Shown in pieces: positions 15,793 to 36,543 of a stretch of 64,000 bases of DNA. The position numbers were made by a program, and so were the translations under genes. The first letter of the stretch is position 1, and every line of letters begins with the position of its first letter. The DNA lies in the NCBI RefSeq assembly GCF_030384885.1, contig NZ_CP128613.1; one strand, 5' to 3'. Source of the stretch: Escherichia coli (lineage in GTDB: Bacteria > Pseudomonadota > Gammaproteobacteria > Enterobacterales > Enterobacteriaceae). The notes under the pieces are model-generated. The model searched no databases. It worked only from the letters and a program-made list of their open reading frames with translations, and was not told where the DNA came from.

Positions 15793-15805
15793 TGTGAATG
15801 TGGGT

Positions 15806-15855
15806 ATTGCCGGATGCGCCGCATCCGGCAATCGGTGCCAAATGCCGGATGCGTC
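15806..15855. repeat. REP (repetitive extragenic palindrome) elements between convergent mglC and preA
   Basis: tgccggatgcgccgcatccggca and gccggatgcg motifs. Confidence 0.7.
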
Positions 15856-15862
15856 TCTGATT

Positions 15863-17098
15863 TTACAACGTTACCGGGTGTTCTTTCTCTCCCTTCTTAA
15901 ACTTCACTTCCCCAAGATCAATACAACCCACCGGGCAGACGTGACCGCAAAGCAGGCAACCCACACATTTCTCGGTATTACAATGCGGTGTGCGGGTTTT
16001 CTCGCTCCATTCCATCGCCTGGTGACCGCCGTCATAACAGGAAATATAACAGCGTCCACAGCCAACACATTTATCGAGATTGATGTTGGGATAGACAATA
16101 TAACTGCGGTCTAAATCTTCCGCCGGAACAATATTGTGATTCGCCAGACCTACCATCTCCTGCAACGAATCAAACCCCTGATCGGCAAGATAGTGTGACA
16201 ACCCGCTCGCCATATCTTCCACTATCCGATAGCCGTACTGCATAATGCCGGTGGTCACCTGCAATGTCGCTGCACCGAGCAATAAAAACTCTGCCGCATC
16301 TTCCCAGGTTTCAATACCGCCGATACCGCTGATCGGGAAATCGCGCAGCTCTGGATGGGTGCGCATTTGCTGAATAAAGCGTAGGGCGATCGGTTTTACC
16401 GCTTTACCGGAATATCCGGAAATACTCGATTTACCGTTAACGATCGGCATACCAATTTTCTGATTAAGATCGATATTGGTGATGGATTTAACGGTATTAA
16501 TCGCCGCAATGCCATCTGCGCCGCCGCGCTTCGCAGCCAGCGCCACTTCGCACATATCACCGATATTCGGCGTCATCTTCGCCAGCATCGGCAGCGTAGA
16601 ACCACGTTTCACTGCCCGACAATATTTTTCTACCAGCTCCGGGCTTTGCCCGACATCACTACCCATCGCATGAGAAGTCATTTGCGGACAGGAGAAGTTA
16701 CACTCGATCATATCCGCACCAGCTTCTTGCACTAGCCGCGCCAGATCCTCCCACTGCTGTTCATTTTCGCCCATGATCGAAGCGATCAACACTTTGTCCG
16801 GATAATCTTCTTTCAGCCGACGCAGGGCGGCCAGATTCTCCTCCAGAGGATGTTCGGCAATCTGCTCCATATTTTTGAAGCCGATAAAACCGGTATCTTC
16901 TTTCACCAGATGATCAAAACGTGGTGAGACTTCGTTGGCGATAAAAAAGCCGATCGTTTTAAATACCACGCCACCCCAGCCCGTGTCGTAGGCTTTGGCG
17001 CACATCTCATAGCAATTGCCTACCGGCGAAGAAGAGAGGCAGAACGGGTTGGGAAACTTCACGCCGCAAAAGGTAATCGAAAGATCTTTCGTTAACAT
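15863..17098 (-). CDS. preA: NAD-dependent dihydropyrimidine dehydrogenase subunit PreA (4Fe-4S, FMN)
   Basis: Matches recalled PreA; C-terminal ferredoxin CxxCxxCxxxCP motifs; start taken at MLTKDL. Confidence 0.9.
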
Positions 17099-18330
17099 GA
17101 GCAAGCTCCCTCTAAATAGTGATGAATTGCCTCAGCGGCTTCTTTCCCGGTTTTCACGGCATAGACCACGGTTTTGTCACCCTCAACAATATCGCCAGCA
17201 GCAAAGACTTGCGGATCGCGGGTCTGGTAATTTTGTGTTTTGATGGTGTTACGCTGCGGCTCTAACTCCGCAAAGGCATCCAGTCTGGCATGCTGACCGA
17301 CGGCGAGAATAATTTTATCTGCCGCCATCGTCAGTTCGCCCGGTAAGCGTACATGCTTAAACGTGACTTTATTGCCTTCCACGGCCACTGGTGTGAATCC
17401 ATCGATGATCGAAACGCCCAACTCCCGGGCGCTGGCAAACTCTTTTTCGCTTGCCGGAAACTCATCTAACTCTTCACGTGCTACGCAGGTTACCGCCTGA
17501 CAGCCGAGAACTTTCAGCGTGCTGGCAACGTCCATCGCGACATCACCGCCGCCGATAATTAATGCGCTTTGTGGAATGCTGATATCGCCCTGCGCCTGCC
17601 GTGCACGTTGCAAGAAGTCGACGGCAATCTCAACGTCGCTATGCTCAAACAGCGGTAGCCCGGAACCGCCCGACAACCCTACGGTGACAAGTACTGCGCG
17701 GTTTTCCGCTTTCAGTTGCTCCAGGGTGAGTACTTTACCGATTTCGTTATTGCACTTAATGGTCACCCCCATTTTTTCGATACGGGCGATCTCTGCATCC
17801 AGCACGGATTGCGGCAAACGAAATTGCGGAATACCGTTACACAGCCAGCCACCGGGTTGCGCTTCTTTTTCATAAATAGTGACGTCGTACCCCATATTTG
17901 TCAGCGTCACGCTGGCCTGCAATCCAGCAGGACCTGCGCCAATAATGGCGACTTTGCCGAGCGTTTTAGTACCAGGCTGATAAATTTCCATCCCGGTTTG
18001 TTGTTCAAAATCAGTGATAAAACGCTGTAAGCGACCGATATCAATGGGATCATCAACACCGGCACGGGTACAACCGCTTTGACATAATTTCTCCGTTGGG
18101 CAAACTCTGGCGCATACAGCACCTAAGGCATTATTTTCGCGAATTGTCTCGGCAGCGCCTTTAAAATTACGAAAGTAGATTGAGCGTATAAATTTCCCCG
18201 GATCGGTTTGTGCCGGGCAAGCCTGACTACAGGGAGCGTCGTGACATAATAAACAGCGAGAGGCTTCTTTAATCGCCAGTAAAGGCGTAAAAGCCGGAGT
18301 GAGTTCATCCAGATAATTTTGTTGCGGCAT
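17092..18330 (-). CDS. preT: NAD-dependent dihydropyrimidine dehydrogenase subunit PreT
   Basis: 412 aa; FAD/NAD GxGxxG motifs (IIGAGPAG), N-terminal Fe-S cysteines. Confidence 0.9.
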
Positions 18331-18534
18331 GTGATCTTCCTTAATGCTATGAGTAATTAAGGCGAACGCTAAATATACTCGTCATACTTCAAGTTGCATG
18401 TGCTGCGTCTGCGTTAGCTCACCCCAGTCACTTGTCGCCTTCCTGCAACTCGAATTATTTAGAGTATAAATATTGCGTGCTGATATTAAGGCTAAGCGTG
18501 TGGGGAAATTTAAACTGTGAAAGGATTCACAAAT

Positions 18535-18565
18535 AGCTGCGGTTCAGAATGTTATATCCGCAGCT
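18535..18565 (-). terminator. Possible terminator downstream of yeiS
   Basis: Inverted repeat agctgcgg...ccgcagct with large loop; weak. Confidence 0.3.
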
Positions 18566-18616
18566 TATTAAGTGAAGTAATAATTATTCTCAATAATTAA
18601 CAGAAAAGGGAAAATA

Positions 18617-19693
<1,077 letters not shown>

Positions 19694-19725
19694 TGATGCG
19701 ACGTTTATCAGTGTGTCAGACCTGA

Positions 19726-20652
<927 letters not shown>

Positions 20653-20781
20653 GGCGTTGCCTCATAATCATGTAATGGGATAACAGTTTACGAACCCGTT
20701 ATGGCTTTATATGTGATCTGAATCTCATTAATTGTGCAACGAATGAAACTTACATCAAAAATGCGCGACGCATCGCAAATT

Positions 20782-21908
<1,127 letters not shown>

Positions 21909-22002
21909 TTAATTCGTAAAACGTGCTACCGATCACATTAAGAATTCTCAGCATAGTTGAATTACAGGGAAGTAACATCGGGCGAGTGCCCAGTTCAGCA
22001 CA

Positions 22003-22914
22003 CTAATTCTGCTGTAAAAAGTGCAGAAACTGACTTAAAGCATAAGAAGGCGTTTCGTTATTACGCCAAAACACACCGACGCTGCCTTTCTGTTCAATCT
22101 TTGGCAGGTTGAGGATTGCCAGTTGCCCCTGGCTGGCATAACGTTGCGCCAGGCGTAATGACAAAATAGAGATCATATTGCTGCTTTGTAACAGGTTGGT
22201 ACTGACGTTCATCGATGCCGACTCAATCGTGTTTTCTGGCAGCATCACGCCGTGGTCTACCAGCGCATTATCAATGCTGATGCGGATGGGGGTACCTGTC
22301 GGCCAGACTATCCACCGCCAGTTAGCAAGATCATTCCAGCTGAGGGTGGCGTATTTCGCCAGTGGATGCTCAGGACGGGCGACAAAGCATACCGGCTCGG
22401 TGTAGAGCACGCGATAATTCAGCGGCAGCTGCAACGCGCGACCGCCAATTCGCCCAACCACCACATCGACAGAACCTGCCAACAGATCTTGCAGCAATGG
22501 GGTCATCACCTTCTCTTCGATATTCAGGTGTAGAGTTGGCATCTCCTTGAGCAAATGCAAAATCGCCTGGGATACGCAGTCAGTGGCGACGGGAGAACAG
22601 CCAATTTTCAGACTGCCGACCAGTCCACCTTGTTTAAAGCGAGCCAGTTCATATTGCGATCTTTCCATGTCATTGATTAACCGTTGGGCATGTTGCAATA
22701 ACAATTTGCCGCCTTCGGTCGGACGAAGCCCTTTGCTGTGCCGCTCAAAAAGTGTGAGTCCGATCTCATCTTCCAGTTGTGACAACCATTTCGAAAGCGC
22801 GGGTTGGGTGATATTCATCATCCGCGCGACATGGGTCAGATTACCCTGTTCACCCAGCGCCACCAGCATTTGCAGGTGATGTAGTTTTAGTTTTTGCGCC
22901 CAGTTCGCCATTTG
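22003..22914 (-). CDS. mhbR: LysR-family regulator of the gentisate cluster (MhbR-like)
   Basis: N-terminal HTH LTHVARMMNITQPALSKWL, divergent from the catabolic operon; start uncertain (22914 or 22959). Confidence 0.75.
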   Translation of the reverse strand, partial: QMANWAQKLKLHHLQMLVALGEQGNLTHVARMMNITQPALSKWLSQLEDEIGLTLFERHSKGLRPTEGGKLLLQHAQRLINDMERSQYELARFKQGGLVGSLKIGCSPVATDCVSQAILHLLKEMPTLHLNIEEKVMTPLLQDLLAGSVDVVVGRIGGRALQLPLNYRVLYTEPVCFVARPEHPLAKYATLSWNDLANWRWIVWPTGTPIRISIDNALVDHGVMLPENTIESASMNVSTNLLQSSNMISILSLRLAQRYASQGQLAILNLPKIEQKGSVGVFWRNNETPSYALSQFLHFLQQN

Positions 22915-23037
22915 CCATAACCTCCAGGTTATCTCTCTGCCCGAAATGCCATTGTACATCTCATCTCTTTAATCACATTATCGCAACATATACAAAACAA
23001 AAGAAACATCTACCTTACCTGCACTGAGGCATTTACT

Positions 23038-24396
23038 ATGACTCAACGACGTGATTTACAAGCACTTATCGATGCCGCTCCGGTCGGCAAGATGCAGTGG
23101 CGCGTTATCATCTGCTGTTTTCTGGTGGTAATGCTCGATGGTTTTGACACCGCGGCTATCGGCTTTATCGCCCCTGATATTCGCACTCACTGGCAGCTCA
23201 CCGCAGGCGATCTCGCCCCGCTTTTTGGTGCGGGTCTGCTGGGATTAACCGCAGGCGCACTGCTTTGTGGCCCGTTGTCCGATCGCTTTGGTCGCAAGCG
23301 GGTGATTGAGCTGTGCGTCTTTTTGTTTGGCGCGTTAAGCCTCGCCTCGGCTTTCTCACCGGATCTGCAAACGCTGGTCTTCCTGCGCTTTCTCACCGGC
23401 CTGGGTCTGGGCGGCGCGATGCCGAACACCATCACCATGACCTCGGAGTATCTGCCTGCCCGCCGCCGCGGCGCGCTGGTGACGCTGATGTTTTGCGGCT
23501 TTACGCTGGGTTCGGCGTTTGGCGGGATTGTCAGTGCGCAGCTGGTGCCGGTGATTGGCTGGCACGGCATTCTGGTGTTGGGGGGCGTGTTACCGCTGAT
23601 GCTGTTTGTCGCACTGCTGGTAGTTCTGCCGGAATCGCCACGCTGGCAGGTGCGCCGCCAGCTACCGCAGGCGGTGATTGCGAAAACCGTCAGCGCCATC
23701 ACCCGCGAGCGTTATGTCGATACCCACTTTTATCTCATTGAATCAGCCTCCGTTACAAAAGGCAGCATTCGTCAACTGTTTATGGGACGTCAGTTACCCA
23801 TTACGTTGATGTTGTGGGTAGTGTTCTTTATGAGCCTGCTGATTATTTACCTGCTCTCAAGCTGGATGCCGACGCTACTGAACCATCGCGGCATAGACCT
23901 GCAACACGCGTCCTGGGTCACCGCCGCGTTCCAGATTGGCGGTACGTTGGGCGCGCTGGCGCTGGGCGTGCTGATGGATAAGTTCAATCCTTTCCGCGTG
24001 CTGGCGCTGAGCTATGCCATAGGCGCTATATGCATCGTGATGATTGGCTTAAGCCAGGATGGATTATGGCTGATGGCGCTGGCGATTTTCGGCACCGGCA
24101 TTGGCATTAGCGGATCTCAGGTGGGGCTGAATGCGCTGACCGCAACACTTTATCCAACACAAAGTCGCGCCACGGGCGTGAGCTGGTCAAATGCTATCGG
24201 CCGCTGCGGCGCGATTGTCGGCTCGCTTTCTGGCGGCCTGATGATGGCGATGAATTTCTCTTTCGACACCCTGTTTTTCATTATCGCTGTGCCCGCGGCG
24301 ATCAGTGCGGTGATGTTAAGCCTGCTGATCACCGTGGTTCGCCAGTCGACCTCTGTCCCTGACTCACTGCCTCGCGCAGGCGTTGTGAACGAATAA
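23038..24396 (+). CDS. mhbT: MFS aromatic acid:H+ symporter (3-hydroxybenzoate/gentisate transporter-like)
   Basis: 452 aa, 12 TM, MFS motifs ([11 protein letters not shown]). Confidence 0.75.
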
Positions 24397-24407
24397 GGAG
24401 CATCCTA

Positions 24408-25436
24408 ATGACTGATAACAATCAAAAAAGCCGCGAGCAATTTTATCAGCATATTTCCGGGCAAAACCTGACCCCGCTGTGGGAGTCACTGCACCACCTG
24501 GTGCCGAAAACGCCCAACGCCAACTGTGCGCCAGCGTACTGGAATTATCAGGAGATCCGCCCGCTGCTGCTGGAGAGCGGCAGCCTGATTGGCGCGAAAG
24601 AAGCTGTGCGTCGTGTGCTGGTACTGGAAAACCCGGCGCTGCGCGGGCAGTCTTCCATTACCGCGACTTTATATGCCGGTTTGCAACTGATCATGCCGGG
24701 CGAAGTGGCACCGAGTCATCGTCATAATCAGTCGGCGCTGCGTTTTATTGTTGAAGGCAAAGGGGCATTTACCGCCGTTGATGGCGAACGCACGCCAATG
24801 AATGAGGGCGATTTTATCCTGACCCCACAATGGCGCTGGCACGATCACGGTAACCCTGGCGACGAACCGGTTATCTGGCTCGATGGACTGGATCTGCCAT
24901 TAGTGAACACTCTGGGCTGCGGTTTTGCCGAAGATTACCCGGAAGAGCAACAACCGGTAACGCGTAAAGAGGGCGATTATCTGCCACGTTACGCTGCCAA
25001 TATGTTGCCGCTGCGCCATCAGACCGGGAACTCCTCACCCATCTTTAACTACCGTTATGACCGTAGCCGCGAAGTGCTGCACGATTTAACCCGCCTGGGC
25101 GATGCCGATGAGTGGGATGGCTACAAAATGCGCTACGTCAACCCGGTCACCGGCGGCTATCCGATGCCGTCGATGGGCGCCTTCCTGCAACTGCTACCGA
25201 AAGGGTTCGCCTCCCGCGTGGCGCGTACCACTGACAGCACTATCTACCATGTAGTGGAAGGTAGCGGACAAGTCACCATCGGCAATGAAATCTTCACCTT
25301 TAGTGCAAAAGATATCTTTGTGGTGCCGACCTGGCACGGCGTGTCATTCCAGATTACGCAAGATACCGTTTTATTCAGTTTTTCGGACAGACCGGTACAA
25401 GAAGCCCTGGGGCTGTTCCGCGAAGCGCGTTATTAA
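24408..25436 (+). CDS. mhbD: Gentisate 1,2-dioxygenase (bicupin)
   Basis: 342 aa; cupin His motif [12 protein letters not shown]; size and order as in gentisate clusters. Confidence 0.8.
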
Positions 25437-25451
25437 TTTGGGAGAGAGAAA

Positions 25452-26153
25452 ATGACTCAATATGTATTCGAACCACAAGCGCCCGTTACCGTACCGGTTG
25501 TTGGCAGTGATGAACAATTCCCCGTGCGCCGCGTTTACTGTGTCGGGCGTAACTATGCCGCCCACGCCCGCGAAATGGGCTTTGATCCGGATCGTGAACC
25601 CCCCTTCTTCTTCTGCAAACCAGCAGATGCCGTTGTTCCGGTCGCCGCTGGCGAAACGCTGGCGCTGCCGTATCCGGCGCAGACCGATAACTATCATTAC
25701 GAAATTGAACTGGTGGTGGCGATTGGTAAAAAGGGCAGCGATATCCCACTGGAAAAGGCCCATGAATATGTCTGGGGTTATGCCACAGGCCTTGATATGA
25801 CTCGCCGTGACCGTCAAATGGAAATGCGTCAGATGGGCCGCCCGTGGGAAATCGGCAAAGCATTTGATCTCTCGGCCCCCATCGCACCGCTGCACAAAGC
25901 CAGCGAAACTGGCGGTATTGATAACGCACCTATCTGGTTACAGGTTAACGGCGAAGATCATCAGCGCAGCGATATTCGTCATCTCATCTGGTCAGTGAAT
26001 GAAACCATCAGCTACCTGTCAGGCTTCTTTGAACTGCAACCGGGCGATCTAATCTTTACCGGTACGCCAGAAGGGGTGGGCCCAGTAGTCAAAGGTGATG
26101 TGATCACGGGCAACGTCGAGGGCTTAACCCCTATCGCGGTGAAGATTGTCTGA
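25452..26153 (+). CDS. mhbH: Fumarylpyruvate hydrolase (FAH family)
   Basis: 233-aa FAH-fold protein following the dioxygenase. Confidence 0.75.
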
Positions 26154-26161
26154 GGTGCATG

Positions 26162-26806
26162 ATGAAGCTGTACAGTTTTTTTAATAGTTCAGCATCGTAC
26201 CGGGTACGCATTGCGCTGGCGCTGAAAGGCATTAATTACCAGACCGAAGGGGTGAATATCCGTATTGGTCAGCAAAATGAACTGGCCTATCGGCGGATGA
26301 ATCCTGTCGGGCTGGTGCCGACGCTGCTGACTGACGAGGGCGAGTCACTCGGTCAGTCGCTGGCGATTATTGACTGGCTGGATCGTCACTACCCGCAAGT
26401 TCCGCTGGTGCCGCAGGAAGAACCGGCCCGCAATAAGGTGCTGGAAATTGTCTATGCCATCGCTTGTGATATTCATCCATTGAATAACCTGCGCGTGCTG
26501 CGCTATCTGACCGAAGAGCTGAACGTCAGTGAAGAAGAGAAAAAACGCTGGTATGCGCACTGGATCCAGCAAGGGTTAAGCGCGGTGGAACAGCTACTGC
26601 GCCAGAGCCAGTCGGGGCAATTTTGTGTGGGTGAGACGCCGACGCTGGCAGACTGCTGCCTTGTTCCGCAGTGGGCGAACGCGCTACGTATGAACTGCGA
26701 TCTGAGTGGATATCCGCGCTGCAAAGCGGTGTACGACGCCTGCACACAACTGCCAGCGTTCATTGCCGCAGCGCCAGAAAATCAACAAGATAAAATTTCA
26801 GCCTGA
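26162..26806 (+). CDS. mhbI: Maleylpyruvate isomerase (GST zeta-class)
   Basis: 214-aa GST-like protein. Confidence 0.75.
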   Translation: MKLYSFFNSSASYRVRIALALKGINYQTEGVNIRIGQQNELAYRRMNPVGLVPTLLTDEGESLGQSLAIIDWLDRHYPQVPLVPQEEPARNKVLEIVYAIACDIHPLNNLRVLRYLTEELNVSEEEKKRWYAHWIQQGLSAVEQLLRQSQSGQFCVGETPTLADCCLVPQWANALRMNCDLSGYPRCKAVYDACTQLPAFIAAAPENQQDKISA

Positions 26807-26820
26807 CCAGGAGAACCATA

Positions 26821-28014
26821 ATGACTAAAGTGACACGCGCAGTAATTGTGGGAGGCGGGATCGGCGGTGCGGCAACTGCGCTGTCACTGGCCCGCCAGGG
26901 GATCAAAGTGGTGCTGCTGGAAAAGGCGCATGAGATCGGTGAGATCGGCGCAGGTATCCAGTTGGGGCCAAATGCGTTTTCGGCGTTGGATAGTCTTGGT
27001 GTTGGCGAAATCGCCCGCCAACGTGCGGTATTCACCGATCACATCACCATGATGGACGCGGTGAACGCCGAAGAAGTGGTGCGTATTGAAACCGGGCAGG
27101 CCTTTCGTGACCATTTCGGCGGCCCTTACGCGGTGATCCACCGCGTTGATATTCATGCCTCGGTGTGGGAAGCGGTACTGACGCATCCGAACGTGGAGTA
27201 TCACACCTCTACGAATGTCGTGGATATTCGTGAGACGGAAGACGATGTCACCGTTTTCGACGATCGAGGTAATAGCTGGAGCGGCGATATTTTGATTGGA
27301 TGTGATGGCGTGAAGTCAGTGGTGCGCCAGAGCTTATTAGGCGATGCGCCGCGCGTCACCGGTCATGTGGTCTACCGTGCGGTTATCGATTGTGCGGATA
27401 TGCCGGAAGATTTACGTATTAATGCGCCGGTATTGTGGGCGGGGCCGCACTGTCACCTGGTGCATTATCCTTTGCGCGGCGGCAAGCAGTATAACCTGGT
27501 GGTGACATTCCACAGCCGCCACCAGGAAGAGTGGGGCGTGAAGGATGGCAGTAAAGAGGAAGTGCTTTCCTATTTTGAAGGCATTCACCCGCGTCCTCGC
27601 CAGATGCTGGATAAACCGACGTCATGGCGACGCTGGTCAACGGCCGATCGTGAACCGGTAGGGAAATGGGGGACTAACCGCATTACGCTGGTGGGCGATG
27701 CGGCCCATCCGGTGGCGCAGTATATGGCACAAGGTGCCTGTATGGCGCTGGAAGATGCAGTAACGCTGGGTAAGGCGCTGGCGCAGTGTGAGGGTGATGC
27801 GGCGCAAGCTTTTGCGCTGTATGAGTCGGTACGTATTCCGCGTACCGCGCGCATCGTCTGGTCGACCCGTGAAATGGGGCGGGTTTATCACGCCGCAGGG
27901 GTAGAACGTCAGGTACGTAACCTGCTGTGGAAAGGGAAATCGCAGGCAGAGTTTTATCGCGGCATGGAGTGGCTGTACGGCTGGAAAGAAGATAACTGTC
28001 TGCAACCACGCTGA
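26821..28014 (+). CDS. mhbM: FAD-dependent aromatic monooxygenase, 3-hydroxybenzoate 6-hydroxylase / salicylate hydroxylase family
   Basis: N-terminal VIVGGGIGGAATALSL dinucleotide fold, DG and GD FAD motifs. Confidence 0.75.
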   Translation: MTKVTRAVIVGGGIGGAATALSLARQGIKVVLLEKAHEIGEIGAGIQLGPNAFSALDSLGVGEIARQRAVFTDHITMMDAVNAEEVVRIETGQAFRDHFGGPYAVIHRVDIHASVWEAVLTHPNVEYHTSTNVVDIRETEDDVTVFDDRGNSWSGDILIGCDGVKSVVRQSLLGDAPRVTGHVVYRAVIDCADMPEDLRINAPVLWAGPHCHLVHYPLRGGKQYNLVVTFHSRHQEEWGVKDGSKEEVLSYFEGIHPRPRQMLDKPTSWRRWSTADREPVGKWGTNRITLVGDAAHPVAQYMAQGACMALEDAVTLGKALAQCEGDAAQAFALYESVRIPRTARIVWSTREMGRVYHAAGVERQVRNLLWKGKSQAEFYRGMEWLYGWKEDNCLQPR

Positions 28015-28042
28015 GTACTTCTTACCCAATCAGGTGCACGGA

Positions 28043-28084
28043 CGGTCCCCTCGCCCCTTTGGGGAGAGGGTTAGGGTGAGGGGA
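28043..28084. repeat. G-rich imperfect palindromic element at island junction
   Basis: ggtcccctcgcccctttggggagagggttagggtgagggg; family not recognised. Confidence 0.4.
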
Positions 28085-28173
28085 AAAATCTTGCCCGAAT
28101 TAATCAGTAAGTCAGTTTGTCTGCAAACACCAGAGGCGCTAACATAGCGCCTCATTTTTTTGCGGGTGATGAT

Positions 28174-29124
28174 ATGCGTGTGTTACTGGCGCCGATGGAG
28201 GGTGTACTCGACTCTCTGGTGCGTGAATTGCTGACCGAAGTTAACGACTACGATCTGTGCATCACCGAGTTTGTCCGCGTGGTGGATCAACTGCTGCCGG
28301 TAAAAGTTTTTCATCGCATTTGCCCGGAGCTACAAAACGCCAGCCGAACGCCATCCGGTACGCTGGTGCGCGTGCAATTGCTGGGTCAGTTCCCACAATG
28401 GCTGGCAGAGAACGCCGCCCGTGCGGTGGAGTTAGGTTCCTGGGGCGTGGATCTTAATTGCGGCTGTCCGTCGAAAACGGTTAACGGTAGCGGCGGCGGG
28501 GCGACACTACTCAAAGATCCTGAACTCATCTACCAGGGTGCAAAAGCGATGCGTGAAGCTGTACCGGCGCATTTGCCCGTCAGTGTGAAAGTGCGTCTGG
28601 GCTGGGACAGCGGTGAGAAGAAATTTGAAATCGCCGATGCGGTTCAACAGGCTGGCGCTACGGAGTTGGTGGTGCATGGGCGGACAAAAGAGCAGGGGTA
28701 CCGCGCGGAGCATATTGACTGGCAGGCGATTGGCGAGATTCGCCAACGGCTGAATATTCCGGTGATTGCCAACGGTGAAATCTGGGACTGGCAGAGCGCG
28801 CAACAGTGTATGGCGATCAGCGGCTGTGACGCGGTGATGATTGGTCGCGGAGCGCTCAATATTCCCAATCTGAGCCGAGTGGTAAAATATAACGAACCGC
28901 GAATGCCGTGGCCGGAGGTGGTTGCTTTGCTACAAAAATATACCCGTCTGGAAAAGCAGGGCGATACCGGGTTATATCACGTTGCGCGGATTAAACAGTG
29001 GTTGAGTTATTTGCGTAAAGAATACGATGAAGCAACAGAATTATTTCAGCATGTTCGGGTGTTGAATAATTCCCCTGATATTGCAAGGGCTATTCAGGCA
29101 ATTGCTATCGATAAGCTGCGATAA
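28174..29124 (+). CDS. dusC: tRNA-dihydrouridine(16) synthase
   Basis: Start at [10 protein letters not shown] (track start 28117 is upstream extension); Dus family TIM barrel. Confidence 0.9.
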
Positions 29125-29506
29125 TAGTGGAATCGCAGCTTACCAGAGACAATGAGTCGTTTATTCAGCTTCATCATCTTGTTGCGCTCCTTTCATGAGC
29201 TAAGCCATATATTGCCACTGGCGCAAGGCGCGCAGGGGAAGGACAATCGCCTCCTCCCCCTGCAAGCCCGGGCTCTGGCGAACAAAATCGCCGTTGCGCG
29301 GTACCTTCAGCTTATCCCCTTCGTCTACCGTGTCGTGCGCGAGTTAACGTATATGGACGCTCCCTCAGCCCACATTCATGTGGGCTGTCCCGGCCTTCGG
29401 GGAACGCTTCAGCGATTTTGACGCCACCAACACCGGAGCTGTTTGCAAATCAAGTACACAAAATATCGAGTTCCTGACCTGACAACTTATATGCCATATC
29501 TGATTT

Positions 29507-29590
29507 TTAAAATATCATCTTAAATACGCCAGTCACCACCAGTAGTCCAATCAGGAAAATAATCAATACAGCCCAGAGTATAATTTTCAT
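29507..29590 (-). CDS. yohP: Small membrane protein YohP (27 aa)
   Basis: Minus-strand ORF MKIILWAVLIIFLIGLLVVTGVFKMIF with AAGGA Shine-Dalgarno; below the ORF-track length cut-off. Confidence 0.8.
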   Translation of the reverse strand: MKIILWAVLIIFLIGLLVVTGVFKMIF

Positions 29591-29813
29591 TGGCGTTCCT
29601 TTATTTGTGAGTGTCGAATAAGTATAGGAAAAAACGAAGCCCTTTGCCGTTACTCATAAGTGATTAAGATAAATCGGAGAATATCATTCACTTACTGTAT
29701 ATTTTTCTGAATATGTCGTTTTATTGCCACTGATGTATTGCCACGCGAAACTAAAAAATATATTGAATCACACGGTAATCTCCGCGCACCTTTTCTTACC
29801 TGACTATTCCTCC

Positions 29814-31250
29814 ATGAATCGTGATTCCTTTTACCCAGCCATCGCCTGTTTTCCTCTGTTACTGATGCTGGCCGGGTGTGCGCCTATGCATGAAACCCGC
29901 CAGGCGTTAAGCCAGCAAACACCCGCTGCGCAAGTTGACACCGCATTACCTACGGCGCTGAAAAATGGTTGGCCAGACAGCCAATGGTGGCTGGAGTATC
30001 ACGATAATCAACTCACTTCATTAATTAACTATGCACTGCAGAACGCACCGGATATGCAGGTGGCTGAACAGCGCATTCAGCTGGCTGAAGCCCAGGCGAA
30101 GGCAGTTGCCACTCAGGATGGCCCTCAGATCGATTTTTCTGCGGATATGGAGCGGCAAAAAATGTCGGCAGAAGGGCTAATGGGGCCGTTTGCTCTGAAC
30201 GATCCTGCCGCAGGTACGACCGGTCCGTGGTACACCAATGGTACTTTTGGCTTAACGGCGGGCTGGCATCTTGATATTTGGGGAAAGAATCGGGCGGAGG
30301 TTACTGCTCGCCTCGGTACGGTTAAAGCACGGGCGGCGGAACGCGAGCAAACCCGCCAATTGCTGGCTGGCAGCGTTGCCCGCCTTTACTGGGAGTGGCA
30401 AACCCAGGCAGCGTTAAACACTGTTTTGCAGCAAATCGAAAAAGAGCAGAACACCATTATCGCGACCGATCGCCAGCTATACCAGAACGGGATTACTTCT
30501 TCAGTTGAAGGTGTGGAAACCGATATTAATGCCAGCAAGACCCGGCAGCAGCTCAACGATGTCGTGGGAAAAATGAAAATTATTGAGGCACGGTTAAGCG
30601 CACTTACAAATCACCAGATAAAGTCATTGAAGCTTAAACCGGTTGAGTTGCCGAAAGTGGCAAGTCAGCTTCCTGATGAACTGGGGTATTCATTGCTGGC
30701 ACGGCGGGCAGATTTGCAGGCAGCGCATTGGTACGTTGAGTCATCGTTAAGCACCATTGATGCGGCAAAAGCGGCATTTTACCCTGACATCAACCTGATG
30801 GCCTTCCTGCAACAGGATGCGTTGCACTTAAGCGATTTGTTCCGTCATTCCGCGCAGCAAATGGGCGTTACGGCAGGCCTGACGCTACCCATTTTCGATA
30901 GTGGTCGTCTTAACGCCAACCTCGATATTGCAAAAGCCGAAAGCAACTTGTCTATCGCCAGCTACAACAAAGCGGTGGTTGAAGCGGTGAATGACGTGGC
31001 GCGGGCAGCCAGTCAGGTTCAGACGCTGGCGGAGAAAAACCAGCATCAGGCGCAAATTGAGCGCGATGCCTTGCGTGTGGTAGGTCTTGCGCAGGCCCGC
31101 TTTAACGCGGGTATCATTGCTGGTTCCCGCGTCAGCGAAGCCAGGATCCCGGCGCTGCGTGAGCGGGCCAATGGCCTGTTATTGCAAGGGCAGTGGCTGG
31201 ATGCCTCCATTCAACTCACTGGTGCGTTGGGCGGGGGTTACAAACGCTGA
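29814..31250 (+). CDS. mdtQ: Outer membrane efflux lipoprotein (OMF/NodT family), apparently intact
   Basis: Lipoprotein signal ...LLMLAGC; TolC-like repeats; uninterrupted 478 codons from MNRDSF. Confidence 0.8.
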   Translation: MNRDSFYPAIACFPLLLMLAGCAPMHETRQALSQQTPAAQVDTALPTALKNGWPDSQWWLEYHDNQLTSLINYALQNAPDMQVAEQRIQLAEAQAKAVATQDGPQIDFSADMERQKMSAEGLMGPFALNDPAAGTTGPWYTNGTFGLTAGWHLDIWGKNRAEVTARLGTVKARAAEREQTRQLLAGSVARLYWEWQTQAALNTVLQQIEKEQNTIIATDRQLYQNGITSSVEGVETDINASKTRQQLNDVVGKMKIIEARLSALTNHQIKSLKLKPVELPKVASQLPDELGYSLLARRADLQAAHWYVESSLSTIDAAKAAFYPDINLMAFLQQDALHLSDLFRHSAQQMGVTAGLTLPIFDSGRLNANLDIAKAESNLSIASYNKAVVEAVNDVARAASQVQTLAEKNQHQAQIERDALRVVGLAQARFNAGIIAGSRVSEARIPALRERANGLLLQGQWLDASIQLTGALGGGYKR

Positions 31251-31302
31251 TGATATACGCCTTCTATACTTAACGTTTATTCAGCGTTAAGTGGAGAACT
31301 CG

Positions 31303-32064
31303 ATGGCACAGGTCGCGATTATTACCGCTTCCGATTCGGGGATCGGCAAAGAGTGCGCGTTATTACTGGCGCAGCAGGGTTTTGATATTGGTATTACCTG
31401 GCACTCAGATGAAGAAGGGGCAAAAGATACCGCGCGTGAGGTGGTTAGCCACGGCGTACGTGCGGAGATGGTGCAGCTCGATCTCGGTAAACTGCCAGAG
31501 GGGGCACTGGCGCTGGAGAAACTTATTCAACGGCTGGGGCGCATCGATGTGCTCGTGAATAATGCGGGCACAATGACCAAAGCGCCGTTTCTTGATATGG
31601 CTTTCGATGAGTGGCGCAAGATTTTTACCGTTGATGTTGATGGTGCATTTTTATGCTCGCAAATTGCGGCCCGCCAGATGGTGAAACAAGGGCAGGGCGG
31701 TCGCATCATCAACATTACGTCGGTACATGAGCATACGCCGCTGCCGGATGCCAGCGCCTATACAGCCGCTAAACATGCACTCGGTGGGCTAACCAAAGCG
31801 ATGGCGCTTGAGCTGGTCAGGCATAAGATTTTGGTGAATGCAGTCGCGCCTGGGGCTATCGCCACGCCAATGAATGGCATGGATGACGGCGACGTGAAGC
31901 CCGACGCGGAGCCTTCGATTCCCCTGCGGCGTTTCGGCGCAACGCATGAGATTGCCAGCCTGGTGGCGTGGTTATGCTCTGAAGGCGCAAATTACACCAC
32001 CGGGCAGTCGTTAATTGTCGATGGTGGCTTTATGCTGGCGAATCCGCAGTTCAACCCAGAATAG
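31303..32064 (+). CDS. yohF: Short-chain dehydrogenase/reductase
   Basis: TASDSGIG Rossmann motif, Y-x3-K catalytic motif (YTAAK). Confidence 0.85.
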   Translation: MAQVAIITASDSGIGKECALLLAQQGFDIGITWHSDEEGAKDTAREVVSHGVRAEMVQLDLGKLPEGALALEKLIQRLGRIDVLVNNAGTMTKAPFLDMAFDEWRKIFTVDVDGAFLCSQIAARQMVKQGQGGRIINITSVHEHTPLPDASAYTAAKHALGGLTKAMALELVRHKILVNAVAPGAIATPMNGMDDGDVKPDAEPSIPLRRFGATHEIASLVAWLCSEGANYTTGQSLIVDGGFMLANPQFNPE

Positions 32065-32193
32065 CACAGTGAGGTGCGTGGTTATTTCAATGGGTAATAT
32101 TTGGTAGGCATGGTAAGACGTGCAAGCGTCGCATCAGGCATGGTGCGACGGATGTCGGATGCGGCGCAAACCACCTTATCCGAGGCAATGGTT

Positions 32194-32772
32194 TTACGCC
32201 TGATCATCCGGCTTTTTCTTCCCGCGCCGTTTCAGCCACCAGCGCACGCCAACCACCAGAACCACGACCAGGATCAACCAGACCCAGTGCTTCAAATGCT
32301 GGTCGAGATTGTGCAACCACGGCGCAATCACCTGACCACCAGCATAACCGATAGTGGTAAAAATCAACGCCCAGGCAAATGCGCCGAGAATATTCAGCGG
32401 CAGAAAGATTTTCGGCGGCAGCTGGCTGGCACCAATCAGCGTCGGGCCAATGACCCGAAAGCCATACATAAAACGCGTACCAATGACAAACAGATACGGA
32501 TGGCGCTGGATAAGTTTCTGCGCCCGCTCAATTTTATCCTGATGCTTAGAGAAGCGGCGTAACAGCTTGCCACCAAACCGCCGCCCGCACAGATAAAGCA
32601 CCTGGTCGCCAATCATGCCGCCAAGCGCTACAGAAAGTACCACCAGCGGGAACTTTAATAACCCCTGATGTGCCGCAACGCCTCCCAGCAACGTCACGGT
32701 TTCACCTTCCGCCAGACTTCCGAGCACCAGCGCAGCATAACCATATTGTGAGATGAGTGTATTGAGATCCAT
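32194..32772 (-). CDS. yohD: DedA-family inner membrane protein
   Basis: Start taken at MDLNTLISQYGY. Confidence 0.8.
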   Translation of the reverse strand: MDLNTLISQYGYAALVLGSLAEGETVTLLGGVAAHQGLLKFPLVVLSVALGGMIGDQVLYLCGRRFGGKLLRRFSKHQDKIERAQKLIQRHPYLFVIGTRFMYGFRVIGPTLIGASQLPPKIFLPLNILGAFAWALIFTTIGYAGGQVIAPWLHNLDQHLKHWVWLILVVVLVVGVRWWLKRRGKKKPDDQA

Positions 32773-32941
32773 AGGCCCGTCTGTCTCCCTTTGGTTGCTT
32801 GTAAGCATACACCCTGTGAATCATTCACGCTGAAAAAGGACGCTCATCAGACGGTGCAAATTCTATGAATGCACAAAAAATAATCACAAGCTGACTTATA
32901 CTTGAACTGTCAGGTTCATGAACTCACAACAAGGGGGCGGT

Positions 32942-33529
32942 ATGAGCCATGTCTGGGGACTGTTTTCCCATCCCGATCGTGAAATGCAGGTGATTAATCG
33001 CGAAAACGAAACGATTTCTCATCACTACACCCACCACGTTTTGCTGATGGCGGCGATTCCGGTGATTTGCGCCTTCATTGGCACTACACAGATTGGCTGG
33101 AATTTTGGCGATGGCACTATCCTGAAGTTATCCTGGTTCACCGGACTGGCGCTGGCCGTCTTGTTTTATGGCGTTATGCTGGCTGGGGTCGCGGTGATGG
33201 GGCGGGTCATTTGGTGGATGGCACGCAATTACGCGCAGCGTCCGTCGCTTGCGCACTGTATGGTCTTCGCGGGCTACGTTGCGACGCCGCTGTTTTTAAG
33301 CGGTCTGGTGGCGCTTTACCCGCTGGTCTGGTTGTGTGCGCTGGTCGGCACGGTGGCGCTGTTTTACACCGGCTACCTGCTTTACCTCGGTATTCCAAGC
33401 TTCCTGAATATCAACAAAGAGGAAGGCCTTAGCTTCTCCAGTTCGACGCTGGCGATTGGCGTGCTGGTACTGGAAGTGCTGCTCGCCCTTACCGTTATAC
33501 TATGGGGCTACGGTTATCGTTTGTTCTAG
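32942..33529 (+). CDS. yohC: Yip1-family inner membrane protein
   Basis: Start taken at MSHVWGLF. Confidence 0.8.
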   Translation: MSHVWGLFSHPDREMQVINRENETISHHYTHHVLLMAAIPVICAFIGTTQIGWNFGDGTILKLSWFTGLALAVLFYGVMLAGVAVMGRVIWWMARNYAQRPSLAHCMVFAGYVATPLFLSGLVALYPLVWLCALVGTVALFYTGYLLYLGIPSFLNINKEEGLSFSSSTLAIGVLVLEVLLALTVILWGYGYRLF

Positions 33530-33702
33530 CAAGTTCTTTTGCGTTGCATTGCTGGCGTAAATGTCAGCAATGCAGCATTTCCTCACGATTCTTCTTTGAC
33601 GATCGCACTTTTTGCTCGTTATGATGGCGTCGCTAGCCTCAGTAAATCCTTACTCCGGCGGTGCGCAACCTGTGCGCGTGAACCACTATCTGAATGCTCA
33701 TC

Positions 33703-34635
33703 ATGCCGAAATTTCGAGTTTCTTTATTTAGCCTGGCCCTGATGCTGGCTGTGCCTTTTGCACCGCAGGCCGTTGCGAAAACGGCAGCCGCTACCACCGC
33801 TTCACAGCCGGAAATTGCCTCCGGTAGCGCTATGATTGTTGATCTGAATACCAACAAAGTGATCTATTCGAACCACCCGGATCTGGTGCGTCCGATTGCG
33901 TCTATCAGCAAATTAATGACCGCGATGGTTGTGCTGGATGCACGATTGCCGCTGGATGAAAAACTGAAAGTGGATATCAGCCAGACGCCGGAGATGAAAG
34001 GGGTCTATTCGCGCGTACGACTGAACAGCGAAATCAGCCGTAAAGATATGCTGTTGCTGGCGCTGATGTCTTCAGAAAACCGCGCGGCGGCAAGCCTTGC
34101 GCACCATTATCCCGGTGGTTACAAAGCCTTTATTAAGGCGATGAATGCGAAAGCGAAATCGCTCGGAATGAACAACACGCGCTTTGTTGAACCGACCGGA
34201 TTGTCGGTGCATAACGTTTCAACTGCCCGTGACTTAACCAAACTGCTCATTGCCAGCAAACAATATCCGTTGATTGGTCAGTTAAGTACTACCAGGGAAG
34301 ATATGGCAACCTTCTCTAACCCGACGTATACGCTGCCGTTCCGCAATACTAACCATCTGGTGTATCGCGATAACTGGAATATTCAGTTAACCAAAACGGG
34401 CTTTACCAATGCGGCGGGCCATTGTCTGGTGATGCGTACGGTTATCAATAATAAACCGGTAGCGTTGGTGGTGATGGACGCGTTTGGCAAATATACCCAT
34501 TTTGCCGATGCCAGCCGCCTGCGTACCTGGATTGAAACCGGTAAAGTGATGCCTGTTCCGGCAGCAGCGTTGAGCTATAAAAAACAAAAAGCCGCCCAGA
34601 TGGCGGCGGCGGGGCAGACGGCGCAGAACGATTAA
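33703..34635 (+). CDS. pbpG: D-alanyl-D-alanine endopeptidase (PBP7)
   Basis: Signal peptide, SxxK motif (SISK), SEN motif (SSEN), KTG motif. Confidence 0.9.
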
Positions 34636-34815
34636 GGGTAGGCAGGATAAGGCGTTTACGCCGCATCAGGCATTCGGAGCACGATGCCTGATGCGATGCT
34701 TGCGCATCTTATCAGGCCTACAAACGTGACGCGTCCGTAGGCAGGATAAGGCGTTCACGCCGCATCCGGCATTCGGTGCACGATGCCTGATGCGATGCTT
34801 CTATTTGCATCAGGC
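34636..34815. repeat. BIME: two tandem ~60-bp units each containing REP palindromes
   Basis: aggcaggataaggcgtt(t/c)acgccgcatc(a/c)ggcattcgg(a/t)gcacgatgcctgatgcgatgctt occurs twice. Confidence 0.8.
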
Positions 34816-34827
34816 ATCCAGCCGTAT

Positions 34828-36543
34828 TTACTCCACTTCCTGCCAGTTTTTCCGCTTACTGGTTTTACCGATCCCCGGATTCATGCTGTTGGTCGGATCG
34901 TTCTCGCGATAGAACTTCTGCAACGTCTCCGGTGCTTTATACAAATGACCGACGTTATGCTCGGCAGGGTATTGCGCGCCGCGCTGCTGTAGCAGTTCCA
35001 GCATCTGTTCTTTCAACGCATGCACATCCACGCCTTTTTTAACGATGTAATCCTGATGGAAGACATAGCACATAAAATGGCCGTAATAGAGCTTGTGCAC
35101 CAGCTGGCAGTCGATCTCCGGCGGTAAATGCTCATACCACTCGGTGTCGTTACGCCGCAGAGCGATATCCAGTGCCAGAATGTCTTCGACTTCATCGGAA
35201 TGCACCGCCTGATAACGAATTGCTGCGCCCGCAGCGGCGAAACGGTGTAAAAACGCTTTGCTGCCTTCTTCCGGCGTACAGACAAAGAAATCGCCCTCGG
35301 CCTGTTTGAAATAATCCACCAGCCACGATTTAGCTTCGCCGACGCCATCGCCCGCCATTTTTAACAGCAGATGATGTTCATATTTATCGCGCCAGCTTTT
35401 CATGCGCGGTGGTAAATGGCTGGGGAACAAGTGACCGAATTTTTGCATCGCACGGTCGGTAAAATGCGGACGGAAGAATTTCACTTTCTCCAGCATCGCA
35501 TCGGTGCGTCCCTTGAGATTAAAGAAGAACGGCATCTTGTCGGTGCCTAACTTATCAATCATCAGGAAGGTGTCTTTGCCGTATTTTTCCGCAATATCGT
35601 AGATATCCCGGTGCATATATTCCCCGGCAACTGGCAGATTTTCGAAATTAGCCAGGATATGGCGGCGGATTTCGGTCAGCACTTCCGGCTGGTTGGTGCC
35701 GATATAAAACACTTGCTGATTTTTTTCTGCTTCGAAGGTATCAAGACGTACCGCAAAGACGGCCAGTTTACCGGCGCAACCGGAGGATTCAAACAGGCGA
35801 TCCGGGTCGGCGTTATAACGTGCTGGTGTGTCGGCTTCAATATCACGAACGCGGTGGACATAGTCATAATCGTGGGCGTGACGACCATCGTGGCGCACAT
35901 CGTCATCTTTGATGCGATCGTCATCCAGCTTGCTAAGGATCTGCTCCGGCGTTTCGCCGAGATCAATCCCCAGATGGTTCACCAGCGTCAGTTTGCCGTC
36001 TTCATTTATACGCGCGAATAACGACATTTCGGTATACGCCGGGCCACGCTGCACCAGCGAGCCGCCGGAGTTGTTACAGATACCGCCGATGACTGATGCG
36101 CCTATACACGATGAGCCAATCACCGAGTGCGGTTCGCGTCCCAGCGGTTTGAGGGCTTTTTCCAGCGAATAAAGCGTGGTGCCCGGATAGGCCAGCACCT
36201 GTTCGCCCTTGCCAAGAACATGTAGTTTGTCGAGACGCAGGGTGCTGATGATCACGATATCGCGATCATAGTCGTTACCGTTTGGCGTCGAGCCTTCGGT
36301 CAGACCTGTATTGGCAGCCTGCATCAGAATAATTTTGTCGGCGGTGACGCAGGCTTTCAGCACCCGCCACAATTCCAGTAGTGAGCCAGGGAAAACGACA
36401 GCCAGCGCGTCGCCCTGACCAGAACGGAAGCCCTTGCGATAGCGGGCCGTTTTTGCGGGATCGGTGAGCAGGTGTGAATGACCGACCAGACGGGCAAGTT
36501 CATTCAAAAAGGCTTTATTATCAGTTGTTGTCATGGAAGACAT
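34828..36543 (-). CDS. dld: FAD-dependent D-lactate dehydrogenase (membrane-associated)
   Basis: Start at MSSMTTTDNK; matches recalled Dld. Confidence 0.9.
   Translation of the reverse strand: MSSMTTTDNKAFLNELARLVGHSHLLTDPAKTARYRKGFRSGQGDALAVVFPGSLLELWRVLKACVTADKIILMQAANTGLTEGSTPNGNDYDRDIVIISTLRLDKLHVLGKGEQVLAYPGTTLYSLEKALKPLGREPHSVIGSSCIGASVIGGICNNSGGSLVQRGPAYTEMSLFARINEDGKLTLVNHLGIDLGETPEQILSKLDDDRIKDDDVRHDGRHAHDYDYVHRVRDIEADTPARYNADPDRLFESSGCAGKLAVFAVRLDTFEAEKNQQVFYIGTNQPEVLTEIRRHILANFENLPVAGEYMHRDIYDIAEKYGKDTFLMIDKLGTDKMPFFFNLKGRTDAMLEKVKFFRPHFTDRAMQKFGHLFPSHLPPRMKSWRDKYEHHLLLKMAGDGVGEAKSWLVDYFKQAEGDFFVCTPEEGSKAFLHRFAAAGAAIRYQAVHSDEVEDILALDIALRRNDTEWYEHLPPEIDCQLVHKLYYGHFMCYVFHQDYIVKKGVDVHALKEQMLELLQQRGAQYPAEHNVGHLYKAPETLQKFYRENDPTNSMNPGIGKTSKRKNWQEVE

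What the first reader, a model, noticed from the sequence alone, without database searches (positions are those of the whole stretch)
28043..28084. Unclassified G-rich palindromic element at the right junction of the gentisate island
ggtcccctcgcccctttggggagagggttagggtgagggg lies between the mhbM stop and the dusC promoter. It is neither a canonical REP nor a simple terminator, and it sits exactly at an island boundary, so it may be a remnant of the integration event or a small repeat family.
Basis: seen in the sequence. Interest (0 to 1): 0.3.

Follow-up and report, generated by a model that had tools for sequence, protein, structure and literature searches.

The report
Known BoxC repeat after mhbM
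The G-rich element is an ordinary copy of BoxC (also called PIT or TMECO), a known short repeat found many times in E. coli chromosomes, and it entered this gene spacer later rather than being a scar of island integration.

Summary
The 40-nt string is real, at window 28044-28083. It is not unclassified. It matches the published BoxC/PIT/TMECO consensus CCCTCNCCC-N3-6-GGGNGAGGG-N3-GGGNGAGGG exactly. Its 36-nt core is identical to three E. coli K-12 MG1655 copies. Near-identical copies occur in 5134 of 5426 complete E. coli genomes, median 8 per genome.

It is not an integration remnant. The yohJ-[mhb/gentisate cluster]-dusC order is shared by E. albertii, Citrobacter, Klebsiella, Salmonella diarizonae, Kluyvera, Pluralibacter and Shimwellia. 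The cluster is therefore ancestral here, and K-12-type strains have lost it.

The ancestral mhbM-dusC spacer is 61 bp and has no BoxC. About 139 cluster-bearing E. coli genomes, E. albertii and several Citrobacter species still have that form. In 365 E. coli genomes, including the window, 108 nt containing BoxC replace 10 nt of that spacer. No cluster-free genome has BoxC at this position.

The element lies 45 bp inside the point where similarity to K-12-type strains resumes. The K-12 deletion allele derives from a BoxC-less spacer.

Published work found no promoter or terminator activity, triplex formation only in isolated single strands, and higher local variability around copies. The finding is ordinary and of low interest.

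The parts
28034..28088 (+). Full BoxC repeat unit of about 55 bp: a 14-nt family-conserved 5' extension (GTGCACGGACGGTC), the 36-nt core, and GAAAA.
   Evidence: Megablast matches to copies at other loci span window 28032-28089 at most. Alignment by eye with 10 MG1655 copies shows conservation from GYGCAC-N5-6-GGTC through the core to GAA. GenBank-annotated BoxC length is 56 bp, range 51-59 (PMC5172473).
28048..28083 (+). TMECO/PIT core CCCTCGCCCCTTTGGGGAGAGGGTTAGGGTGAGGGG, type 'A mm'. C block 28048-56, loop 1 28057-61, G block 1 28062-70, loop 2 TTA 28071-73, G block 2 28074-82.
   Evidence: Exact match to the published consensus. Identical to MG1655 TMECO numbers 7, 11 and 15 in Table 1 of PMC4666352. 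Either G block can pair with the C block.
28021..28128 (+). Lineage-specific 108-nt spacer segment (BoxC plus about 50 nt of non-repeated flanks). It occupies the place of TAATCCGCTG in the ancestral 61-bp mhbM-dusC spacer, a net gain of 98 bp.
   Evidence: Alignments with the short-spacer alleles of E. coli 13P477T and E69, E. albertii and Citrobacter. The 50-nt right flank 28084-28133 occurs once per genome in exactly 365 genomes.
28133..28161 (+). Terminator-like hairpin GAGGCGCTAACATAGCGCCTC followed by T7. It is the real terminator candidate of the spacer and is not part of BoxC.
   Evidence: Flagged by the terminator scan. DNA fold z = -3.8. Conserved in all genera sampled and in cluster-free K-12.
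26821..28014 (+). mhbM (3-hydroxybenzoate 6-monooxygenase), last gene of the mhb/gentisate cluster. Its stop codon is 33 nt upstream of the BoxC core.
   Evidence: ORF list. RefSeq annotation of the 100% identical strain 2013C-4282.
28174..29124 (+). dusC (tRNA dihydrouridine(16) synthase).
   Evidence: Sequence and annotation. Translation [10 protein letters not shown]....

Best explanation
The element is one copy of BoxC, also called the PIT element or TMECO. BoxC is a roughly 56-bp non-coding interspersed repeat of enterobacterial chromosomes. Its core is a C-rich block followed by two G-rich blocks. As isolated single-stranded DNA, the core folds back twice into a purine-motif intrastrand triplex.

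At this locus BoxC is a secondary, lineage-specific insertion into the short spacer between the mhbM stop codon and a conserved terminator-like hairpin just upstream of dusC. The insertion predates the divergence of the window-type and O157-type alleles (inferred from about 5% sequence difference).

The mhb/gentisate cluster itself is ancestral at the yohJ-dusC site. BoxC therefore has nothing to do with acquisition of the cluster or with its loss in K-12-type strains.

Most likely BoxC has no dedicated cellular function here (inferred). It is a passively inherited repeat that is probably transcribed within the mhbM 3' region, where in RNA it can form only a hairpin. As DNA it is prone to non-B structures on the G-rich strand when single-stranded. 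Published comparisons link these copies to raised local indel and rearrangement rates. How BoxC copies spread remains unknown.
For: Identity:
- Exact match to the TMECO consensus, with none expected by chance.
- The 36-nt core is identical to three MG1655 copies.
- The family-specific 14-nt 5' extension is shared with 10 MG1655 copies.
- Near-identical copies occur in 5134 of 5426 genomes, median 8 places, almost all chromosomal: 34365 places against 8 on plasmids.
- The location is intergenic.

Secondary insertion:
- yohJ-mhb-dusC synteny holds in about 25 enterobacterial species, with MhbM identity falling roughly with taxonomic distance.
- A 61-bp BoxC-less spacer is shared by E. coli E69 and 13P477T, E. 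albertii and Citrobacter species.
- 365 genomes have the long spacer against 504 with the cluster.
- The long alleles of the window and O157 share the same unique flanks but differ at about 7 positions in the 108-nt segment.

Not involved in the K-12 deletion: K-12 keeps the short-type TTTAATCCGCTGACCAT.

Not a terminator or promoter:
- No T-run follows it, and no promoter-like site was found.
- Published assays found no promoter or terminator activity, no in vivo replication block and no in vivo triplex footprint, but a stable triplex for the single strand in vitro and higher variability around copies (PMC4666352).

Mostly vertical inheritance: two K-12 BoxC loci are present at the same position in at least 95% of genomes.
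Against: - Nothing contradicts the identification.
- 'No dedicated function' rests on published negative results for other copies and on absence of evidence here. This copy was never tested.
- The insertion is not clean. About 50 nt of non-BoxC sequence of unknown origin came with it or accumulated later, so a single simple insertion event is not demonstrated.
- The figure of about 139 BoxC-less cluster carriers is a difference of two coverage-threshold counts, not a direct enumeration.
- Transcription of the element is inferred only from its position upstream of the terminator-like hairpin.
Confidence: 0.88

Rival explanations
1. The element is a remnant of the event that integrated the gentisate island, such as an attachment-site scar or terminal repeat.
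For: It lies within 45 bp of where similarity to cluster-free strains resumes. It occurs at this position only in cluster-bearing genomes.
Against: - The cluster is at the same yohJ-dusC position in many genera, so it is ancestral rather than integrated.
- No tRNA was found within 15000-35000, the cluster has no integrase or transposase, and its GC content is unremarkable.
- There is only one copy of the motif in the 64-kb window, so none at the left end.
- Many cluster carriers lack the element.
- The same sequence is dispersed at unrelated loci in nearly all E. coli genomes.
Confidence: 0.02
2. The copy has a local RNA-level role. One version is a 3' stem-loop that protects mhb mRNA from exonucleases, as REP elements do. 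The other is a partial barrier that tunes read-through from mhbM into dusC.
For: - It sits 33 nt after the mhbM stop and upstream of the terminator-like hairpin, so it is probably transcribed.
- The RNA can form a GC-rich 9-bp hairpin.
- Six of the eight K-12 BoxC loci examined also lie just downstream of a stop codon, between convergent genes.
Against: - Published tests of PIT elements found no terminator or promoter activity and no effect on RNA polymerase (citing Hoyne & Maher 2002).
- Both orientations occur relative to flanking genes.
- Fold stability is not above composition-matched shuffles.
- The ancestral spacer works without it in about 139 E. coli genomes and in other genera.
Confidence: 0.07
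3. The element acts as a non-B-DNA fragile site (triplex, hairpin or G-quadruplex) that caused the structural differences at this junction, including loss of the cluster in K-12-type strains.
For: - TMECO loci are more variable than control intergenic sites.
- This spacer shows several length variants around the element, and the decayed BoxC in L005 is followed by unrelated sequence.
- The G-rich strand fits a (G3+N1-7)4 quadruplex pattern, seen directly in the sequence.
Against: - The K-12 deletion allele retains the short-type spacer sequence and none of the BoxC flanks, so the deletion arose from a BoxC-less allele.
- In vivo footprinting did not detect the triplex, and NMR argued against a quadruplex for the oligonucleotide.
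- The association between variability and BoxC may be reversed: repeats may simply land in tolerant spacers. REP-type inserts occupy the same spot in other genera.
Confidence: 0.05

Closest known systems
BoxC / PIT element / TMECO (Bergler 1992; Hoyne et al. 2000, 2002; Holder et al. 2015, PMC4666352)
   Same: Exact consensus match and a core identical to MG1655 copies 7, 11 and 15. It has the same 14-nt 5' extension and a unit of about 55 bp. It is intergenic, chromosomal and multi-copy in nearly all E. coli genomes. It is type A (TTA second loop) with the usual single mismatched triplet.
   Different: Nothing in the element itself differs. It is a single copy, not one of the inverted A+B pairs. 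The locus (mhbM-dusC spacer) is absent from K-12, so it is not among the 23 MG1655 copies. I did not check whether it is among the 62 conserved loci of Holder et al., whose 56 strains probably include O157:H7.
REP/BIME elements
   Same: Short, GC-rich, imperfectly palindromic, intergenic and often just after stop codons. REP-like inserts occupy the same mhbM-dusC spacer in Citrobacter amalonaticus, Salmonella diarizonae and Klebsiella.
   Different: No similarity to the REP consensus. REP-like matches in the window are elsewhere, at 32104-32139 and 34686-34721. The three-block C/G/G design is not a simple palindrome. No RAYT-type transposase is known for BoxC (my knowledge).
Intrinsic (Rho-independent) terminator
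   Same: GC-rich hairpin downstream of a stop codon.
   Different: It is followed by AAAAA, not a T-run, and the scan does not flag it. The true terminator-like site is 28133-28161. Published assays found no terminator activity.
MITEs (miniature inverted-repeat transposable elements)
   Same: Small, non-coding, dispersed, with presence/absence polymorphism at this locus.
   Different: No terminal inverted repeats matching a known IS. No consistent target-site duplication: weak here (p about 0.035) and absent in 10 K-12 copies. Copies are mostly fixed at orthologous sites.

Membership tests
BoxC / PIT / TMECO | Core consensus CCCTCNCCC-N3-6-GGGNGAGGG-N3-GGGNGAGGG | tested here: met
   Exact match at 28048-28082, with 0 expected in 100 shuffles. 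Consensus taken from PMC4666352.
BoxC / PIT / TMECO | Unit of about 56 bp (51-59) including conserved sequence 5' of the core | tested here: met
   Matches to other copies span 28032-28089. The GYGCAC-N5-6-GGTC extension is shared with 10 MG1655 copies. Length taken.
BoxC / PIT / TMECO | Multi-copy, dispersed, chromosomal, intergenic in E. coli | tested here: met
   5134 of 5426 genomes, median 8 places at megablast stringency, 34365 chromosomal places against 8 on plasmids. This copy is intergenic. 23 copies are reported in MG1655.
BoxC / PIT / TMECO | The G-rich strand folds into a purine-motif intrastrand triplex in vitro | not testable with these tools
   Block complementarity fits: the C block pairs with either G block. 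CD and NMR data are published for 'type A mm' oligonucleotides, and the paper's mutated control oligonucleotide is this exact 36-mer with four G-to-C changes.
REP / BIME | 35-40 bp imperfect palindrome matching the REP consensus (GCCKGATGCGRCG...CTTATCMGGCCTAC) | tested here: not met
   A consensus search with up to 3 mismatches hits only 32104-32139 and 34686-34721, nothing near 28044.
Intrinsic terminator | GC-rich stem-loop immediately followed by a T-run | tested here: not met
   The scan flags only 28133-28161. BoxC is followed by AAAAAT.
Genomic-island attachment or integration scar | Matching repeat at both island ends, with adjacent tRNA or integrase, and an island absent from the ancestral locus | tested here: not met
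   Single copy in the window. No tRNA. No mobility genes. The cluster is syntenic across genera.
Rfam RNA families | Score at or above a family's gathering threshold | tested here: not met
   Only sub-threshold chance matches: best on the element is Antizyme_FSE at 18 bits against a gathering score of 40, E = 1.9.

The most novel reading that the evidence does not exclude
This locus is a clean natural 'filled versus empty' pair for BoxC, with a 61-bp ancestral spacer and a 159-bp derived one. The filled allele shows BoxC flanked by an imperfect direct repeat, TCTTACCC-AATCAG / TCTTGCCCGAATTAATCAG, plus extra unique sequence. If that pattern recurred at other polymorphic BoxC sites, it would mean BoxC spreads by a target-duplicating or template-switching mechanism. 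No mobility mechanism has ever been shown for this family.
Probability: 0.08. Interest if true: 0.4.

Novelty: already known. Interest (0 to 1): 0.08.

Why it matters
It matters little in itself, because the element belongs to a repeat family described since 1992 and studied in 2000, 2002 and 2015.

The useful outcomes are corrections:
- The 'gentisate island' of E. coli is an ancestral enterobacterial gene cluster, lost in most E. coli, not an insertion.
- The G-rich element is a later passenger in the spacer, not a boundary marker.

The locus does offer a well-defined filled/empty allele pair, with 365 against about 139 genomes. This could be used to test experimentally whether BoxC affects neighbouring gene expression or local mutation rates, which remains unresolved for the family.

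Tried and rejected
- **Rfam.** An E-value search of 27000-29500 gave nothing meaningful on the element.
- **Integration signatures.** No tRNA or tmRNA, an unremarkable GC profile, no second copy in the window, and no mobility genes in the annotation.
- **Target-site duplication.** The direct repeat flanking this copy is only marginal (p about 0.035 by shuffling, chosen post hoc). None of 10 MG1655 copies shows one at p < 0.05, so this is not supported as a family property.
- **Composite repeat.** I tested whether the non-BoxC flank (28084-28133) belongs to a larger repeated unit. It occurs once per genome, only at this locus. Rejected.
- **Empty sites at other BoxC loci.** I looked at two K-12 loci, zntA-tusA and aaeR-tldD. 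Both are occupied in at least 95% of genomes, with only small or additional indels, so no filled/empty comparison was obtained.
- **Origin of the K-12 spacer.** I tested whether the 101 nt that replace the cluster in K-12 derive from the cluster or from other species' loci. No significant similarity was found, so their origin is unknown.
- **Did BoxC cause the K-12 deletion?** Rejected, because K-12 retains the BoxC-less spacer sequence.
- **Alignment caveat.** The first automatic MAFFT alignment misplaced the short allele. I re-examined it by eye and with pairwise alignments.
- **Later literature.** A search for a discovered function found nothing beyond Holder et al. 2015 in the held library.

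Full report
**1. Observation**

The quoted string GGTCCCCTCGCCCCTTTGGGGAGAGGGTTAGGGTGAGGGG is at window 28044-28083 on the + strand. This is one base inside the stated coordinates at each end. It lies between the stop codon of the 397-aa ORF 26821-28014 (3-hydroxybenzoate 6-monooxygenase, mhbM) and the ATG of dusC at 28174. It occurs once in the 64-kb window. Neither the string nor shorter versions of it appeared in 100 dinucleotide-preserving shuffles.

It is not a simple palindrome. One C-rich block (28048-56) can pair with either of two G-rich blocks (28062-70 or 28074-82). This gives a 9-bp stem with one G x A mismatch plus a spare G-rich block. Its folding energy is unremarkable for such a composition (z between -0.45 and -1.4).

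**2. Identity**

A megablast of 28015-28110 against 5426 complete E. coli genomes found near-identical copies in 5134 genomes. The median was 8 places per genome and the maximum 14. There were 34365 places on chromosomes against 8 on plasmids, and none carried an annotated feature in the rows listed. Similarity to copies at other loci covers window 28032-28089, about 56 bp.

A literature search led to Holder et al. 2015 (PMC4666352). That paper treats this sequence under three names:
- BoxC, first noted by Bergler et al. 1992;
- PIT, 'potential intrastrand triplex' element (Hoyne et al. 2000, 2002);
- TMECO.

Their consensus CCCTCNCCC-N3-6-GGGNGAGGG-N3-GGGNGAGGG matches the window exactly at 28048-28082. 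The 36-nt core is identical to MG1655 copies 7, 11 and 15 in their Table 1. It is type 'A mm': a TTA second loop and one mismatched triplet.

I extracted 10 MG1655 copies with their flanks. They share with the window copy a 14-nt extension upstream of the core (GYGCAC-N5-6-GGTC) and GAA downstream. This places the unit at about 28034-28088. The GenBank-annotated BoxC length is 56 bp, range 51-59, with 33 copies in K-12 (PMC5172473).

The element does not match the REP consensus. REP-like matches in the window are at 32104 and 34686. It is not flagged as a terminator and matches no Rfam family.

**3. The 'island'**

The window is 100% identical at this locus to E. coli 2013C-4282. The gene order there is yohJ(-), a LysR regulator(-), mhbT, gtdA, an FAH-family hydrolase, maiA, 3-hydroxybenzoate 6-monooxygenase, then dusC.

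Cluster-free strains (K-12 type) align up to window about 21947 on the left and from 28129 on the right. They carry about 118 nt of their own in between. BoxC therefore ends 45 bp inside the right-hand breakpoint, not at it.

I scanned one genome per species (GTDB) with MhbM. The same yohJ-cluster-dusC arrangement, with the same spacing, appeared in:
- E. albertii
- at least eight Citrobacter species
- Klebsiella species
- Salmonella enterica subsp. diarizonae
- Pseudocitrobacter
- Kluyvera
- Pluralibacter
- Shimwellia
- several others

MhbM identity declines roughly with taxonomic distance, from 96% to 87%. There is no tRNA, no mobility gene and no compositional anomaly. The cluster is therefore ancestral at this site, and the K-12 state is a deletion. 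About 504 of 5426 E. coli genomes retain the cluster.

**4. History of the spacer**

A 61-bp mhbM-dusC spacer is present in E. coli E69 and 13P477T, E. albertii (as far as its contig runs) and six Citrobacter genomes. Its E. coli form reads GAG-CACTT-TAATCCGCTG-ACCGG, followed by the hairpin and T-run. Near-equivalents of 62-63 bp occur in Pseudocitrobacter, Pluralibacter and the unclassified Enterobacteriaceae bacterium LSJC7. This is the ancestral form, and it has no BoxC.

In the window, 108 nt (28021-28128) stand in place of TAATCCGCTG, a net gain of 98 bp. These 108 nt consist of BoxC plus about 50 nt of unique sequence.

Three independent searches each return exactly 365 genomes:
- mhbM + long spacer + dusC;
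- long spacer + dusC;
- the 50-nt right flank alone, once per genome.

It follows that no cluster-free genome has BoxC at this position, that the flank is not part of a repeated unit, and that about 139 cluster carriers lack the element. The last figure is a difference of thresholded counts.

The window-type and O157-type long alleles share the same architecture but differ at about 7 positions in the segment. This points to one old insertion.

The K-12 deletion allele retains the short-type TTTAATCCGCTGACCAT. The deletion therefore happened in a BoxC-less allele, and BoxC did not cause it.

In other genera the same spot, just after the mhbM stop, carries REP/BIME-like inserts. This suggests a permissive landing site rather than a boundary signal.

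**5. What it does**

Shown in the literature for other copies:
- The duplex does not form a triplex.
- In vivo DMS footprinting did not detect the triplex.
- PIT elements showed no promoter or terminator activity and no in vivo replication block.
- TMECO loci are more variable among strains than control intergenic sites.

Shown here:
- No T-run and no promoter-like site at the element.
- The terminator-like hairpin of the spacer is separate, at 28133-28161.
- Two K-12 BoxC loci are occupied at the same position in at least 95% of genomes, so copies are mostly inherited vertically.

Inferred: this copy is a passively inherited repeat, probably transcribed in the mhbM 3' region as a hairpin, and without a dedicated role. 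Its main plausible effect is structure-prone DNA on the G-rich strand. A local role in mRNA stability or read-through is possible but unsupported.

**6. Mobility**

The copy is flanked by an imperfect direct repeat, TCTTACCC-AATCAG / TCTTGCCCGAATTAATCAG. The repeat is only marginally better than shuffles (p about 0.035, chosen post hoc). Ten K-12 copies show nothing comparable. I therefore do not claim a target-site duplication. How BoxC spreads remains unknown. No later paper in the held library reports a function or a mechanism.

**7. Verdict**

The element is a member of a small repeat family, but it is a known one. It is neither at the exact boundary nor a relic of integration. Novelty: already known. 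Interest: low.

Noticed in passing
window 28133-28161: The hairpin GAGGCGCTAACATAGCGCCTC plus T7 ends 13 nt before the dusC ATG. It is conserved in every enterobacterial genus sampled that has dusC downstream of mhbM, and it is retained in cluster-free K-12, where no upstream gene needs terminating. It may be the mhb operon terminator, a dusC leader or attenuator, or both. dusC transcription must pass through it.
   Followed up: partly
L008, L009, L011, L014, L016, L017, L031, L071 (mhbM-dusC spacers): In Citrobacter amalonaticus, C. sedlakii, Salmonella diarizonae and Klebsiella species, the same spacer just after the mhbM stop carries REP/BIME-like insertions instead of BoxC. It looks like a recurrent landing site for small repeats.
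   Followed up: partly
L004 1383-1483 (K-12-type yohJ-dusC spacer): About 101 nt of unknown origin stand where the 6.2-kb cluster is in other strains. They include the hairpin AGAGGGATTGCAGTTTGCAGCAATCCCTCT. They show no similarity to the cluster or to other species' loci.
   Followed up: partly
L005 5627-5830: A contig binned as a 'Collinsella sp.' MAG encodes MhbM 98% identical to the window's. Downstream it has a decayed BoxC followed by unrelated sequence instead of dusC. It is probably a mis-binned Escherichia contig with a further rearrangement at the BoxC.
   Followed up: no
E. coli genomes identical to the window at this locus (2013C-4282, EC42405, R32_14_1F, RMDEC465): These genomes show only 1-4 megablast BoxC places, against a median of 8 and a maximum of 15 across E. 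coli. BoxC load differs strongly between lineages.
   Followed up: no
L034 14796-14922 (Serratia sp. H1w): An inverted pair of BoxC-like units lies about 6.7 kb downstream of the mhbM homologue. This shows the family outside Enterobacteriaceae sensu stricto.
   Followed up: no
L022, L023, L024, L027, L041: Pseudenterobacter, Kluyvera and related loci have 0.4-1.7 kb of extra sequence between mhbM and dusC, probably an additional gene.
   Followed up: no
window 32104-32139 (-) and 34686-34721 (+): Two REP-like elements match the REP consensus with 3 and 2 mismatches.
   Followed up: no
zntA-tusA spacer, hits H164-H169: Some E. coli genomes carry an extra 160-170 bp, or about 450 bp with a hypothetical ORF, next to the K-12 BoxC copy of this spacer. 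This is another example of length variation around a BoxC.
   Followed up: no
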